From a virus (Duplodnaviria > Heunggongvirae > Uroviricota > Caudoviricetes), in the IMG/VR virus record IMGVR_UViG_2541047807_000006: 9,150 nucleotides of DNA, one strand, 5' to 3'. This document shows positions 1 through 9,150 of the stretch, piece after piece (the first letter of the stretch is position 1; each line of letters begins with the position of its first letter). The notes beneath the pieces are model-generated. The model made no database searches. It saw only the letters and a program-made list of their open reading frames with translations, and was not told the DNA's origin. The position numbers and the translations under genes were made by a program.

Positions 1-1239
1 ATGAGCAGGGCAATTCATAGACTTAGCGACACTCTTTTACGAAAATTAAGCGGATCACCAACCACAAAAAACACCTTTTTTAATGATGGTGGCAACCTTA
101 GCGTAAGGCATTCAACCAATGGCCTGTTAACCTGGTATTTCACTTACAGGGCCGGAACTGGCAGGCAGGTATCACCGGAACGCCTGAGACTGGGCAACTA
201 TCCCGATCTGAGCCTGAAAGCAGCCAGAGAAAAAGCGGCACAGTGTCGCGCCTGGCTGGCGGAGGGGAAAAATCCACGCCATGAGCTTAATCACACAGTG
301 CAGGAAGCGTTAGCACCTGTAACGGTTAAGGACGCGATCACTTACTGGCTTGAGTCATACGCGAAGGAAAAGCGCACTGACCACGAATCACTGAAAAGCC
401 GGATCAATAAGCACATAATCAGCCAGATTGGTGCTATGCCGCTGGATAAATGCGAGTTACGCCACTGGCTGGCCTGTTTTGACCAGCTTGCTAAGCGTAA
501 TCCGGTATCAGCCGGCTTTTTGTTGCAGGTATGCAAGCAGGCGCTTAAGTACTGCCGTAAACGTCGCTACGCCGTCAGTAACGTTCTTGATGATATGGTC
601 GTAGGTGATGTGGGAAAAAAAGCAGAAATAAGCGAGCGAGTGCTAACAAACAAGGAGCTTGGCGAGCTACTCCGCGCACTGGATGAAAAAATTTTCCCGC
701 CGTACTACAGCGCCTTAATTCGCCTTCTGATTGTCTTTGGATGCCGTACCACTGAGCTAAGACGCTCCGAGGTTCAGGAATGGGATTTTAAAGAAATGCT
801 CTGGACTGTGCCGAAAGAACACAGCAAAACGAAGGTAGCAATATTCAGGCCAATACCGGAAGCGATCTTGCCGTTTGTCATGAAGCTGGTGGAGAAGAAC
901 AGGCACACGGGCTTATTGCTTGGAGAACTGAAAGGGCAATCATCCGTAGCAGAGTACGGAAGAACGGCACACAGACGCATTAATCAAGCCCCCTGGTCGT
1001 TGCATGACATCCGGCACACATTTACAACCATGCTGAACGATTTAGGCGTGGATCCGCATATTGTCGAGCAGCTTACCGCCCACCAGATGCCGGGGATGCA
1101 ACGAGTCTATAACCACTCCCGTTATCTTGATGCAAAACGTGATGCTCTTAATCTATGGGTAGACCGTCTCGAGCTTCTCCAGAACAATGATGAAAAAATC
1201 GTTGTTATGACCCCGCGAATTTACCCCCAAAATTCTTGA
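1..1239 (+). CDS. int: Tyrosine recombinase / phage integrase (P4-type), 412 aa
   Basis: Long ORF starting at window position 1. C-terminal catalytic region HDIRHTFTT...MPGMQRVYNHSRY carries the H-x-x-R and terminal Tyr pattern of tyrosine recombinases, and the N-terminus resembles the arm-binding domain of P4-family integrases. The upstream att/tRNA context lies outside the window, and the true start could be upstream. Confidence 0.9.
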   Translation: MSRAIHRLSDTLLRKLSGSPTTKNTFFNDGGNLSVRHSTNGLLTWYFTYRAGTGRQVSPERLRLGNYPDLSLKAAREKAAQCRAWLAEGKNPRHELNHTVQEALAPVTVKDAITYWLESYAKEKRTDHESLKSRINKHIISQIGAMPLDKCELRHWLACFDQLAKRNPVSAGFLLQVCKQALKYCRKRRYAVSNVLDDMVVGDVGKKAEISERVLTNKELGELLRALDEKIFPPYYSALIRLLIVFGCRTTELRRSEVQEWDFKEMLWTVPKEHSKTKVAIFRPIPEAILPFVMKLVEKNRHTGLLLGELKGQSSVAEYGRTAHRRINQAPWSLHDIRHTFTTMLNDLGVDPHIVEQLTAHQMPGMQRVYNHSRYLDAKRDALNLWVDRLELLQNNDEKIVVMTPRIYPQNS

Positions 1240-1280
1240 CAAATTACGGCTGTTTTTTCTTTAAGAGATTACAGCCGTGA

Positions 1281-1320
1281 ATAAATCGTAGAATATCGGA
1301 AAATATCTGCAAATATCTTC
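1281..1320. repeat. Four tandem 10-bp phased repeats, consensus (A)AATATC, in the int-alpA intergenic region
   Basis: Seen directly: ATAAATCGTA / GAATATCGGA / AAATATCTGC / AAATATCTTC with exact 10-bp periodicity. Function as binding sites or curved DNA is inferred. Confidence 0.4.
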
Positions 1321-1658
1321 GCTTTATATATGTCAACCATCAAAAAATTGGAATGTCTTCTTCTGAACTTTTATTCTCTGTTTCTTGATTGTTCCAACAC
1401 TTGATGGTTTATCTATTTGTTTTTAATGAGATAATTCAAGCGTAATGCCAAGTAACGACATTTTTTGTTGCATCGCTTAAAAACTCGTGACACGATTTTA
1501 AACACTAACGAGCTTCTACGAACCTTAGCGAACAAAGCCTTTAGCAAGGTTGTGTTTTTAATTTAAGAGGTGAAAAAAGAATCTAAGTAATATCCGATCT
1601 CATATATCTACAGCTAAGAGAAAAGTTTATATACGTAATTTTTTATGTAGGTTTTTGT

Positions 1659-1868
1659 ATGCGTGAAATAAATGAAGATCGCGTAATCCGTGAGGATGAA
1701 TGTCGTAAGTTAACTGGAGTGTGTCGCACTACACGCTATGAACTGGAGAAAAAAGGGAATTTCCCGTCACGCCGTAATCTGGGCGGTCGTTCTGTAGGTT
1801 GGCTGCTGTCCGAGGTTATGGAATGGGTTAAAAGCCGGGATCGCATTAATTCAGGCAAGGCAGCGTAA
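1659..1868 (+). CDS. alpA: AlpA-family phage transcriptional regulator / excisionase-like protein, 69 aa
   Basis: Sequence LTGVCRTTRYELEKKGNFPSRRNLGGRSVGWLLSEVMEWV matches the AlpA/Vis-type winged-HTH pattern (HTH followed by GxRxVGW...EV.EW). Its size and position directly after int are typical of P4-like and Gram-negative PICI elements. Confidence 0.85.
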   Translation: MREINEDRVIREDECRKLTGVCRTTRYELEKKGNFPSRRNLGGRSVGWLLSEVMEWVKSRDRINSGKAA

Positions 1869-1982
1869 AGGGGAGCATATGACATATAAAACAAAGGCGA
1901 CCGGGGGCGGTCGCCAATGGATACACACTAAACTTGAACGCATCACCAACAATGCCACATTTGCGGCTGGTGGGCAATGTGA

Positions 1983-2171
1983 TCAGTCAGATTTGGTTCG
2001 TTCCAAGGTTTGCAACGAGAGCTTTTTCCTGTGCTCTTTAAGGAATTTCTCAAGAGCAAAAGCACATGGCGCGAATCTTTCTGATTCATGCTCTATCTTT
2101 CTGCGCCGTCTTTTCCGTGCCGGTGATAATGTTTTGGTCAATTCTTTATCGGTCATTGTGTTGTCCTGCAT
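1983..2171 (-). CDS. Hypothetical small basic protein (62 aa), possibly co-transcribed downstream of the RHH gene
   Basis: ORF on the same strand, 42 bp downstream of the RHH gene stop. Very basic (KRRRRK) with no recognisable motif. No clear Shine-Dalgarno at the first ATG; a weak AGGA precedes the internal ATG (MTDKE...). Could be spurious. Confidence 0.25.
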   Translation of the reverse strand: MQDNTMTDKELTKTLSPARKRRRRKIEHESERFAPCAFALEKFLKEHRKKLSLQTLERTKSD

Positions 2172-8124: not shown

Positions 8125-8131
8125 CAACAAG

Positions 8132-8153
8132 GGCGGCGACAGCCGCCTTTTTT
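8132..8153 (+). terminator. Rho-independent terminator hairpin GGCGGC-GACA-GCCGCC followed by T6, 8 bp after the capsid stop; also overlaps the cosN-like 10-mer
   Basis: Seen directly: perfect 6-bp all-GC stem, 4-nt loop and a TTTTTT tract. The left arm lies within GGGCGGCGAC (8131-8140). Confidence 0.7.
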
Positions 8154-8227
8154 ACGGGTCCTCCCGGTGGAGTGGTCTGCCACGGGGCGGGAGCGGCGCG
8201 GAAAAAGGCTAGTTTTTGCATTTTCAT
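8143..8227 (+). repeat. Direct repeat copy 2 (85-bp conserved core)
   Basis: About 96% identical to 5608-5692. Lies between the capsid stop and the small-terminase promoter region. Confidence 0.85.
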
Positions 8228-8380
8228 TCGTCATCATCATCTTTCTATGATATTGAATTTTAAGTGTTTTTATTTTTAGTATGTTAATTTTGCTTGTTTT
8301 ATGCTCAACATATAGCGCATTTTTTGACCTCTTCTGAAAATTGTTCGCAAGATGCATGTTTAAAACATTCTGGAGCGGGT

Positions 8381-8866
8381 ATGGATCGAGAACTGAAAAA
8401 TCTGATGCTGAACATTAATCAACTGGCGGCGATAGCGGGAATATGTCGTCAGACTGCGGCGGCAAGGCTGAAAAACATCCAGCCAGCCGGAGGGCATGAC
8501 AAGCTGAAACTCTATCGGGTGACTGACATTCTGACCTGTTTTCTTGATCTTCCCGTTCCGGCATCACTGGAAGAAATGGAGCCACATGACCGTAAGGCCT
8601 GGTATCAGTCCGAACGTGAGCGCCTCAAGTTCGAACAGGAAACGGCGCAACTCATACCCGCCGATGATGTGCGAAAAGAGATGGCTATATGGGGGGAAAT
8701 CGTAAGCGAGGAACTGGCAAAACTCCCCAATATTCTGGCACGTGATGCCGGGCTTAAACCGATGGCAGTAAACAGAGTGCAGTCAATTATTGACGATTTG
8801 TGTAATCAGATTATCAGCCGGATGGTAAAAAATGACGTAGTGAATGAGGTCGCAAAACAGGCATGA
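8381..8866 (+). CDS. Terminase small subunit, lambda Nu1-like (N-terminal winged HTH), about 161 aa
   Basis: Start trimmed to the ATG at 8381, preceded by GGAGCGGG; the 29 codons upstream in the track ORF cross an AT-rich promoter-like region. N-terminus LNINQLAAIAGICRQTAAARLKNIQPAGG...LKLYRVTDI parallels lambda Nu1 (KKQLADIFGASIRTIQNWQEQGMPV..GGG...VLYDSAAVI, from memory). Confidence 0.75.
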   Translation: MDRELKNLMLNINQLAAIAGICRQTAAARLKNIQPAGGHDKLKLYRVTDILTCFLDLPVPASLEEMEPHDRKAWYQSERERLKFEQETAQLIPADDVRKEMAIWGEIVSEELAKLPNILARDAGLKPMAVNRVQSIIDDLCNQIISRMVKNDVVNEVAKQA

Positions 8867-9150
8867 TAATGACTGAATCTGAAATACTGCGATTAATCCG
8901 CCGTGCTGGTGGAATCAGCCAGCTGGCTGACGAACAGGCCAAGCAGCCGGATACCGTCACCGCTGAAAATTACGCGCGTGTGGTGGCTGATGTGATGCGC
9001 CGTGACGGTATTGAGCTTAACGGCGTGGATATGCGCAACATACGAACCAGAGTTCTTGAGTTGCTGGCATACCGTCGCCGTTCTCAACAACGGAGGGAGA
9101 GCGCGAAAAATACTTACCAGTGGAAGAAGCCGAAACGGTTGCGGCGGTAG
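8863..9150 (+). CDS. Hypothetical protein, 95 aa, with a strongly basic C-terminal tail; translationally coupled to the small terminase gene
   Basis: Its ATG (8863-8865) overlaps the terS stop TGA (8864-8866). The C-terminus RRRSQQRRESAKNTYQWKKPKRLRR is highly basic. No HNH or terminase-large motifs. Confidence 0.55.
   Translation: MIMTESEILRLIRRAGGISQLADEQAKQPDTVTAENYARVVADVMRRDGIELNGVDMRNIRTRVLELLAYRRRSQQRRESAKNTYQWKKPKRLRR

What the first reader, a model, noticed from the sequence alone, without database searches (positions are those of the whole stretch)
1..9150. Satellite/PICI-like element with P4 alpha-type replication plus its own capsid, small terminase and cos
All genes are co-directional in the order int, alpA, accessory ORFs, primase/helicase, ori iterons, protease-capsid fusion, cos-like site, Nu1-like terS. 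Classical P4 has no capsid gene, and classical E. coli PICIs redirect helper terminase rather than carrying a full head module. An element that pairs a P4 alpha/iteron replicon with a lambda-type cos and Nu1-like terS and a ClpP-capsid fusion would make its own capsids and need only helper tails. That resembles the recently described capsid-forming PICIs, but the P4-type replicon makes it a mosaic worth characterising.
Basis: partly seen in the sequence, partly recalled or inferred. Interest (0 to 1): 0.75.

Follow-up and report, generated by a model that had tools for sequence, protein, structure and literature searches.

The report
Classical E. coli PICI phage satellite
This is a 10-kb phage satellite of a catalogued Escherichia coli type (a Gram-negative PICI) that carries its own capsid-shell gene, small terminase and two packaging sites but still needs a lambda-like helper phage for the portal, large terminase, connectors and tails, so it is not a capsid-forming satellite.

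Summary
The listed features are real and in the stated order. The proposed meaning is only half right. In the closest complete genome the island is 10,015 bp. It lies between cspD/yljB and clpS and is bounded by a 17-bp att repeat. It ends 0.68 kb past the window, with no portal, terL, connector, HNH or tail genes, so it is not a cf-PICI.

It uses the same att site as the catalogued PICI EcCIIHE3034 (Fillol-Salom 2018), and its integrase is 94% identical. EcCIIHE3034 has a lambda-type capsid/cos/terS cassette where this element has a ClpP-protease::capsid fusion, a variant cosN and a DUF1441 terS. These match the head module of mEp460-like lambdoid phages.

A P4-alpha-like replicase and capsid genes are both already reported as usual in E. 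coli PICIs, so the "mosaic" is the norm.

- There are two cos sites 2,535 bp apart. One copies a common prophage's cosB (95% identical). The other is paired with the satellite's own TerS.
- The capsid fusion is under purifying selection (dN/dS 0.10) and only 57-58% identical to helper capsids.
- Its homologues (71-79% identical) sit in PICI-like islands of Klebsiella, Dickeya, Serratia and Yersinia.

Verdict: a new member of a known kind, of modest interest.

The parts
1..1239 (+). Tyrosine integrase (412 aa). The window starts at its ATG. attL lies about 185 bp upstream, outside the window.
   Evidence: Pfam Phage_integrase E 3e-18 and Arm-DNA-bind_3 E 8e-17. 94% identical to the integrase of the catalogued PICI EcCIIHE3034. 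att core and arm repeats were seen in L001.
1659..1868 (+). AlpA-family regulator/excisionase (69 aa).
   Evidence: Pfam Phage_AlpA E 3e-16. phrog_2790 E 3e-17.
1983..2171 (-). Small minus-strand ORF (62 aa), function unknown.
   Evidence: phrog_21027 E 2e-14. Annotated in RefSeq relatives.
2214..2393 (-). YlcI/YnfO-family small protein (59 aa), minus strand.
   Evidence: NCBIfam NF041551 E 9e-18. phrog_949 E 2e-20.
2587..2790 (+). Icd-like protein (67 aa). It is the only real coding part of the long 1879-2790 ORF.
   Evidence: NCBIfam NF033153 E 2e-19. phrog_6196 E 4e-42. The long ORF has dN/dS 0.87 and four stops in L001.
2783..3103 (+). Hypothetical protein (106 aa).
   Evidence: phrog_15327 E 1e-71. 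No Pfam, NCBIfam or PADLOC hit.
3110..3409 (+). DUF4222 protein (99 aa).
   Evidence: Pfam DUF4222 E 7e-17.
3406..5223 (+). Replicase (605 aa from the ATG at 3406). It has a PICI-specific N-terminal domain, a P4-alpha-type SF3 helicase and a C-terminal origin-binding domain.
   Evidence: Pfam D5_N, DUF5906 and Pox_D5. 51% identity to P4 alpha residues 320-771, E 1e-163, with no match to alpha's primase domain. PDB 1KA8 E 2e-24. dN/dS 0.02. N-terminal ~120 aa are about 75% identical to the EcCIIHE3034 Rep (read from the alignment); whole protein 48%.
5232..5459 (.). Replication origin, immediately 3' of the replicase gene. It holds nine exact copies of the P4 type-1 iteron TGTTCACC, plus degenerate copies, in both orientations.
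   Evidence: nine copies here, 0.3 expected in the whole window. Same iteron as P4 crr, and by eye a similar AT-rich 'aattaaaagagaaaa' spacer.
5621..5846 (+). cos1: cosQ-like GGGTCCT at 5621-5627, cosN GGGCGGGAGCGT at 5650-5661, then a helper-type cosB.
   Evidence: 93% direct repeat of cos2. Aligns to lambda cosQ/cosN. The cosB part is 94.8% identical to the cos-to-terS interval of the lambdoid prophage in E. coli strain 2A. This cosB occurs in 837 of 5,426 genomes; in the sampled rows at 92-95% identity it abuts a prophage DUF1441 terS.
5847..5905 (+). Remnant of the first codons of a helper-type terS (GTGTCAAAA...), followed by a terminator-like hairpin at 5880-5896.
   Evidence: Homology to the helper prophage stops at the terS start. 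Terminator scan.
6005..6211 (+). Small conserved protein (68 aa) whose stop overlaps the capsid-gene start (TAATG). Its pattern suggests a ribbon-helix-helix fold (inference only).
   Evidence: phrog_4934 E 7e-34. 35-39% identical to the ORFs at the same position in Dickeya and Serratia islands.
6211..8124 (+). ClpP-like prohead protease, scaffold linker and HK97-fold major capsid protein fused in one 637-aa product.
   Evidence: NF045540 899 bits; Phage_capsid_4 E 4e-53; CLP_protease E 2e-35. ClpP Ser/His/Asp motifs AASMAS, MIHKP and GFAD are present in the translation. dN/dS 0.10. 57-58% identical to helper-phage fusions, with a 29-aa linker deletion.
8132..8153 (+). Hairpin GGCGGC-GACA-GCCGCC plus a T-run, the likely terminator of the capsid gene. 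It contains a lambda-cosN look-alike.
   Evidence: Variant GAT in L001 and L010. mEp460 has an annotated terminator at the equivalent place.
8156..8380 (+). cos2: cosQ-like GGGTCCT at 8156-8162, cosN GGGCGGGAGCGG at 8185-8196, then a cosB that runs up to the satellite terS.
   Evidence: Aligns to lambda cos. Aligns to the cos-terS regions of PhiR40_1 and the JJ1886 prophage: core 92-93% identical, cosB 68%. The ends of the mEp460_4F5 assembly fall 5 nt from this cosN.
8381..8866 (+). Satellite small terminase homologue (161 aa, DUF1441).
   Evidence: Pfam DUF1441 E 2e-35. phrog_141 'terminase small subunit' E 4e-57. 64-71% identical to the TerS of mEp460, Ayreon, phi458 and PhiR40_1. Aligned with lambda Nu1. 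No sequence match to RppC or anything else in PDB.
8869..9150 (+). Last gene of the island (93 aa), function unknown. The window ends at its stop codon.
   Evidence: phrog_1561 E 1e-51. 77% identical to the last gene of EcCIIHE3034. dN/dS 0.31.

Best explanation
The window is the gene-bearing 9.15 kb of a ~10.0-kb classical Gram-negative phage-inducible chromosomal island (PICI) of E. coli. Each step below is marked as shown here or inferred.

Integration (shown). Its tyrosine integrase places it at a 17-bp site, ATGATAGTTAT(C/T)TATCA, that overlaps the yljB stop codon between cspD and clpS.

Induction (inferred from the studied relative EcCICFT073). A lambdoid helper phage switches on AlpA, which drives excision and expression.

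Replication (domains and iterons shown, activity inferred). The P4-alpha-like helicase/origin-binding protein acts on TGTTCACC iterons just downstream of its gene and produces concatemers.

Packaging (sequence relationships shown, protein-DNA and protein-protein contacts inferred). Packaging is cos-type and needs the helper's large terminase, portal, connectors and tails. None of these is encoded by the island.

The island offers two entry points. cos1 is a near copy of the cosQ-cosN-cosB of a common prophage, so the helper's own TerS can use it. cos2 has the same cosQ/cosN core but a diverged cosB. It sits directly upstream of the island's own TerS homologue, which would direct the helper TerL to satellite DNA.

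The likely helpers are lambdoid phages and prophages whose head module reads DUF1441 terS, gpA-like terL, portal, ClpP/capsid fusion. Examples are mEp460, cdtI, PhiR40_1, and the JJ1886 and strain 2A prophages.

Capsid gene (selection shown, role unknown). The island's protease-scaffold-capsid fusion is kept by selection. The most likely role is co-assembly with, or replacement of, helper capsid protein in particles built on the helper portal.
For: - Boundaries and absence of portal, terL and tail genes: with the K-12 empty site.
- Same att core and locus as EcCIIHE3034 and EcCI18098 in Table S1 of PMC6092414. Integrase 94% and last gene 77% identical.
- EcCIIHE3034 has a lambda-E capsid, a D-like decoration protein, a phrog_57 terS and lambda-type cosN in the same slot.
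- Gene families.
- P4 alpha homology and iterons.
- cos alignment to lambda and to phage and prophage cos regions.
- TerS 64-71% and capsid fusion 57-58% identical to those of mEp460-type phages, which have the gene order terS-terL-adaptor-portal-fusion.
- A sibling island with 93.5% identity over this cassette is embedded in the terL gene of such a prophage in strain 2A. This is the helper-embedded PICI arrangement of PMC10111431.
- The whole window is found in 44 of 5,426 complete E. coli genomes and the cassette in 187.
- Purifying selection: replicase dN/dS 0.02, capsid fusion 0.10.
Against: - No experiment exists for this element. Induction, helper identity, packaging and the roles of TerS and the capsid fusion all rest on homology to EcCICFT073 and lambda.
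- The TerS homologue differs from phage TerS in the putative recognition helix, in residues ~100-125 and in the C-terminal tail. The phage proteins end in an acidic tail, while this one ends in NDVVNEVAKQA. Binding to helper TerL is therefore not assured. It could instead act like Rpp by binding the helper TerS.
- In EcCICFT073 the capsid gene was dispensable for interference and transfer (PMC6092414; PMC10111431). That leaves the conserved capsid fusion here without a demonstrated role.
- I could not test whether a suitable helper prophage co-resides with this island in the same genomes.
Confidence: 0.85

Rival explanations
1. Capsid-forming PICI. The element builds and fills its own capsids and takes only tails from the helper.
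For: It encodes a self-contained protease-scaffold-capsid fusion and a TerS homologue next to a cos site. The capsid fusion belongs to a conserved lineage seen in satellite-like islands in every context sampled.
Against: The island ends 0.68 kb after the window. It has no portal, terL, HNH or head-tail connector genes. These define cf-PICIs (bioRxiv 10.1101/2022.09.08.507074). Its size of 10.0 kb compares with about 15 kb for EcCIEDL933.
Confidence: 0.02
2. Shell-forming intermediate. The island's protease-scaffold-capsid fusion, with the small upstream protein, assembles satellite-specific and possibly smaller procapsids on the helper portal. Satellite TerS plus helper TerL then fill them from cos2. 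This would be a step between classical PICIs and cf-PICIs.
For: - The fusion carries protease, scaffold linker and capsid domains in one gene, and the ClpP Ser/His/Asp motifs are present.
- dN/dS is 0.10.
- It is only 57-58% identical to helper capsid proteins and has a 29-aa deletion in the linker.
- Homologues at 71-79% identity, always preceded by the small ORF, lie in PICI-like islands of Klebsiella, Dickeya, Serratia and Yersinia whose replicases differ.
- Capsid-protein homologues are implicated in small capsids in SaPIbov5 (Ccm) and suggested for PmCI172 (PMC6092414).
Against: The studied relative EcCICFT073 is packaged in phage-sized capsids, and its capsid gene is dispensable (PMC6092414). 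There are no particle data for this element. The capsid of EcCICFT073 is of a different type (lambda-E-like), so that result may not carry over in either direction.
Confidence: 0.2
3. The DUF1441 protein is an Rpp-like redirector, not a working TerS. It would bind the helper TerS, block phage cos recognition and retarget the complex to the island's cosB.
For: It occupies the position that rpp has in EcCICFT073, downstream of the capsid genes and next to a cos whose cosB differs from the helper's (PMC6739421). Its middle region and C-terminal tail diverge from phage TerS.
Against: It is 64-71% identical over its full length to bona fide phage TerS proteins that sit directly upstream of terL. 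It has no detectable sequence similarity to RppC in PDB.
Confidence: 0.12
4. Decayed prophage remnant or P4-like satellite.
For: The capsid, terS and cos are homologous to lambdoid phage parts. The replicase and iterons are homologous to P4 alpha and crr.
Against: - The att repeats are precise and the K-12 site is empty.
- All genes are intact, and the replicase and capsid fusion show low dN/dS.
- The ~10-kb architecture is conserved in 44 genomes, and the cassette is found in 187, including at least one island at a different integration site.
- int faces inward and is followed by alpA, as in PICIs.
- No lysis, tail, sid, psu, delta or epsilon homologues were found.
- cos is lambda-type.
Confidence: 0.03

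Closest known systems
EcCIIHE3034 and EcCI18098, catalogued E. coli PICIs at cspD-clpS (Fillol-Salom et al. 2018, ISME J, Table S1)
   Same: Same att core (ATGATAGTTAT...) and same chromosomal locus. Integrase 94% identical. Same gene order: int, alpA, YlcI/YnfO, icd-like, DUF4222, replicase, ori, small ORF, capsid, cos, terS, last gene. Last gene 77% identical. Two cosN copies.
   Different: The late cassette is of another phage type. EcCIIHE3034 has a lambda-E-like capsid, a D-like decoration protein, a phrog_57 (Nu1-type) terS and lambda cosN GGGCGGCGACCT. This element has a ClpP::capsid fusion, a DUF1441 (phrog_141) terS and cosN GGGCGGGAGCG(T/G). The replicase is a different allele (48% identity). 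This element has no ssb gene.
EcCICFT073, the studied model Gram-negative cos PICI (PMC6092414; PMC6739421)
   Same: The int-alpA-pri/rep-ori-late zone layout. A capsid gene in the late zone. Two cos sites that share the helper's cosN while cosB differs. Lambdoid siphovirus helpers. Size about 10-11 kb.
   Different: EcCICFT073 has no terS and uses Rpp to hijack the helper TerS. This element has a full-length TerS homologue with no sequence match to the RppC chains in PDB. In addition, one of its two cos sites carries a 95% copy of a prophage cosB. The capsid gene is of a different family, and the att site differs (ycfD-phoQ).
Helper-embedded PICIs (Nielsen et al. 2023, NAR Genom Bioinform, PMC10111431)
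   Same: A sibling island with 93.5% identity over the late cassette sits inside the terL gene of a lambdoid prophage in E. coli strain 2A. This fits the four-zone Integration/Bro/Replication/Late organisation described there. PICIs with a CLP_protease late gene are mentioned in that paper.
   Different: The window's element is at a chromosomal site, not inside a helper. Its Bro zone has no intact BRO-N gene.
cf-PICIs such as EcCIEDL933 (Alqurainy et al., bioRxiv 10.1101/2022.09.08.507074)
   Same: int, alpA and pri-rep, plus satellite-encoded capsid protein, protease and TerS from lineages distinct from known phages.
   Different: This element lacks the portal, head-tail connectors, HNH and TerL. 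It is 10 kb rather than about 15 kb, and its protease and capsid are fused.
Satellite phage P4
   Same: The helicase/origin-binding part of the replicase is 51% identical to alpha. It uses the same TGTTCACC iteron placed directly after the replicase gene, as in crr. It has an AlpA/Vis-type regulator and an icd-like region.
   Different: It has no alpha primase domain and no sid, psu, delta or epsilon. cos is lambda-type, not P2-type. The integrase is only 24% identical. It carries capsid and terS genes that P4 lacks.

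Membership tests
Gram-negative PICI (Fillol-Salom 2018) | int at one end, transcribed inward, followed by a co-oriented alpA regulator. | tested here: met
   int 1-1239 (+) and alpA 1659-1868 (+).
Gram-negative PICI (Fillol-Salom 2018) | Own replication module (pri-rep) followed directly by an iteron origin. | tested here: met
   Replicase 3406-5223. Nine TGTTCACC copies in 5238-5458.
Gram-negative PICI (Fillol-Salom 2018) | Size about 8-12 kb, with its own att site flanked by direct repeats. 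| tested here: met
   10,015 bp between 17-bp att cores in L001. The K-12 site is empty. The att core matches Table S1.
Gram-negative PICI (Fillol-Salom 2018) | No lysis or tail genes, and no complete set of head and packaging genes. | tested here: met
   Only the capsid fusion and terS are present. clpS follows attR.
Gram-negative PICI (Fillol-Salom 2018) | Carries a helper-type cos site (for cos PICIs). | tested here: met
   Two cosQ-cosN cores align to lambda cos and to mEp460-type phage and prophage cos regions.
Gram-negative PICI (Fillol-Salom 2018) | Induction, packaging and high-frequency transfer by a helper phage, with interference against the helper. | not testable with these tools
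   Needs induction and transfer experiments.
cf-PICI (capsid-forming PICI) | Encodes a portal protein. | tested here: not met
   No portal homologue in the window or up to attR in L001.
cf-PICI (capsid-forming PICI) | Encodes a large terminase (and HNH). | tested here: not met
   Neither is present in the window or in L001.
cf-PICI (capsid-forming PICI) | Encodes head-tail connector/adaptor proteins. | tested here: not met
   None is present.
cf-PICI (capsid-forming PICI) | Encodes a major capsid protein, a prohead protease and TerS. | tested here: met
   Fusion gene 6211-8124 and terS 8381-8866.
P4-like satellites | Capsid-size and late-control genes sid, psu and delta (and epsilon). | tested here: not met
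   No ORF matches them in Pfam, PHROGs or NCBIfam. See the P4 map.
P4-like satellites | Alpha-type primase-helicase with a cognate TGTTCACC origin. | tested here: inconclusive
   The helicase, origin-binding domain and iterons match (51% identity; 1KA8 E 2e-24). The N-terminal primase domain of alpha is absent.
Rpp-type packaging redirection (EcCICFT073) | Rpp protein homologous to RppA/B/C. | tested here: not met
   phmmer of the DUF1441 protein against all PDB chains, which should include the RppC chains deposited with PMC6739421, gave nothing below E 0.1.

The most novel reading that the evidence does not exclude
A lineage of classical-sized (~10 kb) Enterobacterales PICIs builds its own capsid shell. 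It would do so from a single protease-scaffold-capsid fusion gene, helped by a small conserved upstream protein, while still taking the portal, TerL, connectors and tails from the helper. In the E. coli members this is combined with a two-cos strategy: one cos mimics the helper's cosB, and one is private and read by the satellite TerS. These elements would then be the missing intermediate between capsid-remodelling PICIs and capsid-forming PICIs. They would also explain why most Gram-negative PICIs keep a capsid gene.
Probability: 0.2. Interest if true: 0.6.

Novelty: new member of a known kind. Interest (0 to 1): 0.3.

Why it matters
As it stands, this is an additional, uncharacterised allele of a catalogued E. 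coli PICI, so it mainly fills in a known picture.

Two details are worth a specialist's attention.

1. PICIs that share one att site and integrase carry alternative capsid-cos-terS cassettes, each matched to a different lambdoid head-module family: lambda-type in EcCIIHE3034 and mEp460-type here. This is a clear example of module swapping that retargets a satellite to a new helper.

2. The capsid fusion is under purifying selection and is far from any helper allele. In all five contexts sampled outside E. coli and Shigella, its homologues lie in satellite-like islands. Yet the only experimental test of a PICI capsid gene, in EcCICFT073, found it dispensable. This element would be a good system for asking what PICI capsid genes are for, and whether two cos sites with different cosB widen the helper range.

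Tried and rejected
- Rfam, window at E up to 1 and whole island at gathering thresholds. Only chance-level hits to eukaryotic families. No C4/isrK-type immunity RNA of the kind reported for some PICIs.
- tRNA scan. None; the att site is not a tRNA gene.
- GGGCGGCGAC at 8131-8140 as cosN. Rejected. It is the stem of the capsid-gene terminator and reads GAT in close relatives. The flanks that align with lambda (ACGGGTCCT...ACG | GGGCGG...CGCGG) place cosN at 8185-8196.
- DUF1441 protein as Rpp. No sequence match to any PDB chain below E 0.1. The two candidate proteins of EcCIIHE3034 also gave no PDB hit.
- N-terminal 155 aa of the replicase. No Pfam hit even at E 10 and no PDB hit, so whether it has primase activity is unknown.
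- PADLOC scan of the small accessory proteins. No defence-system match.
- The 303-aa ORF at 1879-2790 as a gene. Rejected: dN/dS 0.87 and four stops in the relative.
- Literature search for 'major capsid protein fusion' together with 'satellite'. Nothing found.
- Whole-island BLAST against EcCIIHE3034, P4 and the phages in Python failed because most fetched loci were not copied to the script machine. I used pairwise protein and DNA alignment tools instead.
- Co-occurrence of the island with a suitable helper prophage in the same genomes could not be tabulated with the available search outputs.

Full report
**1. What is in the window**

Six-frame ORF listing and profile searches give this plus-strand series:
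- a tyrosine integrase (1-1239)
- an AlpA regulator (1659-1868)
- an icd-like gene (2587-2790)
- a 106-aa hypothetical (2783-3103)
- a DUF4222 protein (3110-3409)
- a D5_N/DUF5906/Pox_D5 replicase (3406-5223)
- a 68-aa ORF (6005-6211)
- a 637-aa ClpP-like prohead protease::major capsid protein fusion (6211-8124; NCBIfam NF045540, 899 bits against a cut-off of 475)
- a DUF1441 protein (8381-8866) that PHROGs classes as a small terminase (phrog_141, E 4e-57)
- a 93-aa last gene (8869-9150)

Two small genes lie on the minus strand: 1983-2171, and 2214-2393 (YlcI/YnfO family).

The long plus-strand ORF at 1879-2790 is not a gene apart from its icd-like end. Against the closest relative it shows dN/dS 0.87 and four premature stops.

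The statement that all genes are co-directional is not strictly true.

**2. Replication module**

The replicase is 51% identical (E 1e-163) to residues 320-771 of P4 alpha, which are the helicase and the C-terminal origin-binding domain. It matches the solved alpha origin-binding domain 1KA8 at E 2e-24.

Its first ~150 residues do not match alpha's primase domain, any Pfam family or any PDB chain. They are about 75% identical (read from the alignment) to the N-terminus of the Rep protein of the catalogued PICI EcCIIHE3034.

Directly downstream, 5238-5458 holds nine exact copies of TGTTCACC in both orientations. About 0.3 are expected by chance in the whole window. This is the annotated P4 type-1 iteron. 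By eye, the AT-rich spacer also resembles P4 crr, which likewise lies just after alpha.

"P4 alpha-type replicon" is thus correct for the helicase, origin-binding domain and origin. It is not shown for the primase.

**3. Where the element ends**

The window matches 44 complete E. coli genomes over at least 80% of its length at 97-98% identity.

In strain GPEC1189 (97.8% identical, one colinear block) the island lies between cspD/yljB and clpS. Comparison with the empty K-12 site shows a 17-bp direct repeat, ATGATAGTTAT(T/C)TATCA, at both ends, 10,015 bp apart. It overlaps the yljB stop codon. Arm-type repeats (GGTGTAGTTAATGGTGTAGTTAAT) sit inside each end.

The window runs from the int start codon to the stop codon of the last gene. 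Beyond it there are only about 680 bp without a convincing ORF or Rfam match before attR, and then clpS.

There is no portal, large terminase, HNH, head-tail connector, tail or lysis gene.

**4. It is a catalogued kind of element**

Table S1 of Fillol-Salom et al. 2018 (PMC6092414) lists two E. coli PICIs, EcCIIHE3034 and EcCI18098, with att core ATGATAGTTAT at cspD-clpS.

The EcCIIHE3034 integrase is 94% identical to the one here, and its last gene is 77% identical. The gene order is the same.

The same paper states three relevant points:
- E. coli PICI Int, AlpA and Pri-Rep are distant homologues of the P4 proteins.
- Some Gram-negative PICIs carry terS.
- EcCICFT073 carries capsid and decoration genes and two cos sites.

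Nielsen et al. (bioRxiv 10.1101/2022.07.18.500453; PMC10111431) report capsid genes in 21 of 29 reference Gram-negative PICIs. They describe a late zone that captures prophage late genes, including CLP_protease genes.

**5. The late cassette and the likely helpers**

The nearest phage homologues of both late genes belong to one group of lambdoid phages: mEp460, cdtI, Ayreon, phi458, Tritos and PhiR40_1. TerS is 64-71% identical at the protein level. The capsid fusion is 57-58% identical at the protein level and about 68% at the DNA level.

In these phages, and in the JJ1886 prophage, the head module reads cos, DUF1441 terS, gpA-like terL, small adaptor, portal, ClpP::capsid fusion, decoration protein.

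In E. coli strain 2A, a sibling island with 93.5% identity over the late cassette is inserted in the terL gene of such a prophage. This is the helper-embedded PICI arrangement. It ties the cassette physically to this helper type.

EcCIIHE3034 shares the att site and integrase but has a different cassette in the same slot: a lambda-E-like capsid, a D-like decoration protein, a phrog_57 (Nu1-type) terS and lambda-type cosN. The cassette therefore looks like an exchangeable, helper-matched module.

The cassette alone is present at 80% coverage or more in 187 of 5,426 complete genomes, against 44 for the whole window.

**6. Two cos sites**

A 94-nt direct repeat (5599-5692 and 8134-8227, 93% identical) was found by the repeat search. 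Its core is identical in both copies.

Aligned with the joined ends of lambda, both copies reproduce cosQ (GGGTCCT) and the surroundings of the nick sites:
- lambda: ACGGGTCCTTTCCGGTGATCCGACAGGTTACG | GGGCGGCGACCT | CGCGG
- this element: ACGGGTCCTCCCGGTGGAGTGGTCTGCCACG | GGGCGGGAGCG(T/G) | CGCGG

This places cosN at 5650-5661 (cos1) and 8185-8196 (cos2).

The same core lies upstream of terS in PhiR40_1, mEp460, and the JJ1886 and strain 2A prophages. The ends of the linear mEp460_4F5 assembly fall 5 nt from it.

The two copies differ downstream of cosN:
- From cosN to position 5846, cos1 is 94.8% identical to the cosB interval of the strain 2A helper prophage, right up to that phage's terS start codon. 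There the homology stops, and a terminator-like hairpin follows.
- That cosB occurs in 837 of 5,426 genomes. In the sampled rows at 92-95% identity it lies next to a prophage DUF1441 terS. In the rows at 97% or more it has no gene under it, as in the island copies.
- cos2 continues into a different cosB, 68% identical to those of the JJ1886 prophage and PhiR40_1 and 38% identical to that of cos1. It then runs into the satellite's own terS.

My reading, which is inference, is a double entry to packaging. cos1 can be used by a helper's own terminase holoenzyme. cos2 is read by the satellite TerS, which then recruits helper TerL.

The sibling island in strain 2A also has both copies.

**7. The capsid fusion**

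The gene is intact, and the ClpP Ser/His/Asp motifs (AASMAS, MIHKP, GFAD) are present.

Between the window and GPEC1189 it has 34 synonymous and 12 non-synonymous differences, giving dN/dS 0.10.

It is 57-58% identical to the fusions of both helper types examined. Those two appear nearly identical to each other, judging from their alignments to the query. The satellite fusion lacks 29 residues in the linker after the protease domain.

A search of the large protein collection found many 631-646-aa homologues:
- 91-99% identical in E. coli, Shigella, E. albertii and Klebsiella pneumoniae records
- 71-79% identical in Pectobacterium, Klebsiella, Trabulsiella, Phytobacter, Dickeya, Citrobacter, Enterobacter, Yersinia and Serratia

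I examined contexts in Dickeya (two places), Serratia (two places), a Klebsiella-type metagenome contig and Yersinia. Every one is a ~10-kb island with an integrase, small ORFs and a replicase next to fis. AlpA was called in all but the Klebsiella one. The replicases are of different families (D5_N/Pox_D5, DUF927, AAA_25). The fusion is always preceded by a 59-64-aa ORF homologous to 6005-6211.

The fusion plus small ORF therefore looks like a long-standing satellite module, not a recent capture. Its function is unknown. In EcCICFT073 a different type of capsid gene could be deleted without loss of interference or transfer.

**8. Verdict**

It is a PICI-type satellite, and the HMM-level calls are right. 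It is not capsid-forming in the cf-PICI sense, because four of the defining gene classes (portal, TerL/HNH, connectors) were looked for and are absent. Neither the capsid gene nor the P4-like replicon sets it apart from classical E. coli PICIs.

The best-supported mechanism is that of a classical cos PICI mobilised by mEp460-type lambdoid helpers. Its particular features are a full TerS homologue in place of Rpp and two cos sites with different cosB.

I class it as a new member of a known kind and score interest at 0.3.

About 0.2 probability remains that the conserved fusion makes satellite-specific capsid shells on helper portals. That would make it a real intermediate between classical and capsid-forming PICIs, worth about 0.6 if shown.

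Noticed in passing
L018 11186-13618 (Klebsiella-type metagenome contig); L014 12156-14987 (Dickeya dadantii): PICI-like islands next to fis carry an 810-943-aa tape-measure homologue (TMP_2/Tape_meas_lam_C) directly after the capsid fusion, with no other tail genes. A lone tape-measure gene in a satellite is unexplained.
   Followed up: no
L016 12059-12283 (Serratia); L019 11076-11300 (Yersinia): In these islands the gene after the capsid fusion is only a 74-aa DUF1441 fragment. The capsid fusion and small-ORF module is therefore conserved even where a full terS is not.
   Followed up: partly
L009 8997-9013 (+) and 9865-9881 (-) (EcCIIHE3034): The sister PICI has lambda-type cosN (ACGGGGCGGCGACCTCG) twice, as an inverted pair flanking its Nu1-type terS. 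In the window's element the two cos sites are direct repeats flanking the capsid gene.
   Followed up: partly
window 8131-8140: GGGCGGCGAC matches 10 of 12 bases of the lambda cohesive end, but it is the stem of the capsid-gene terminator hairpin (GGCGGC GACA GCCGCC T6). It reads GGGCGGCGAT in close relatives. The homologous cosN is 50 nt downstream.
   Followed up: yes
window 5847-5905: After cos1, the first few codons of a helper-type terS survive (GTGTCAAAA here, ATGTCAAAT in the strain 2A prophage). A terminator-like hairpin follows at 5880-5896. This looks like a scar of capture of a phage cos-terS junction.
   Followed up: partly
window 5945-6211: RefSeq relatives annotate a minus-strand hypothetical at about 5945-6118. 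The overlapping plus-strand ORF at 6005-6211 is the one with a PHROG match (E 7e-34) and with homologues in Dickeya and Serratia. Its pattern (VHxDAxT...QIVR..V..W) suggests a ribbon-helix-helix protein.
   Followed up: partly
window 5660-5661 and 8195-8196: The twelfth base of the inferred cohesive end differs between the two cos copies in the window: GGGCGGGAGCGT against GGGCGGGAGCGG. In GPEC1189 both copies end in G, while the phages examined end in T. A molecule cut at cos1 on one side and cos2 on the other would have one mismatched base in its sticky ends.
   Followed up: no
window about 5460-5600, compared with hits H1 and H3-H15, L009 5811-6487 and L010 7928-8592: Most close relatives carry an extra 0.6-0.7 kb, with a small ORF and an ssb gene, between the origin and cos1. 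The window and GPEC1189 lack it.
   Followed up: partly
L012 1-30 and L013 100-128 (phage mEp460_4F5, LR595868.1): The linear assembly starts at CCACGGGGCGGGAGCGCGG and ends at ...GGTGGCCTG, which is 5 nt from the inferred nick. It lacks about 3 nt (TCG) inside the cohesive-end sequence relative to the other phages. This is probably an assembly effect at the genome ends.
   Followed up: no
L001 24148-24830 (right arm beyond the window): About 680 bp between the last gene and attR have no convincing ORF and no Rfam hit. They contain a strong GC-rich hairpin with a T-run (GGGGCGGG...CCCGCCCC TTTTTT). Their function is unknown.
   Followed up: partly
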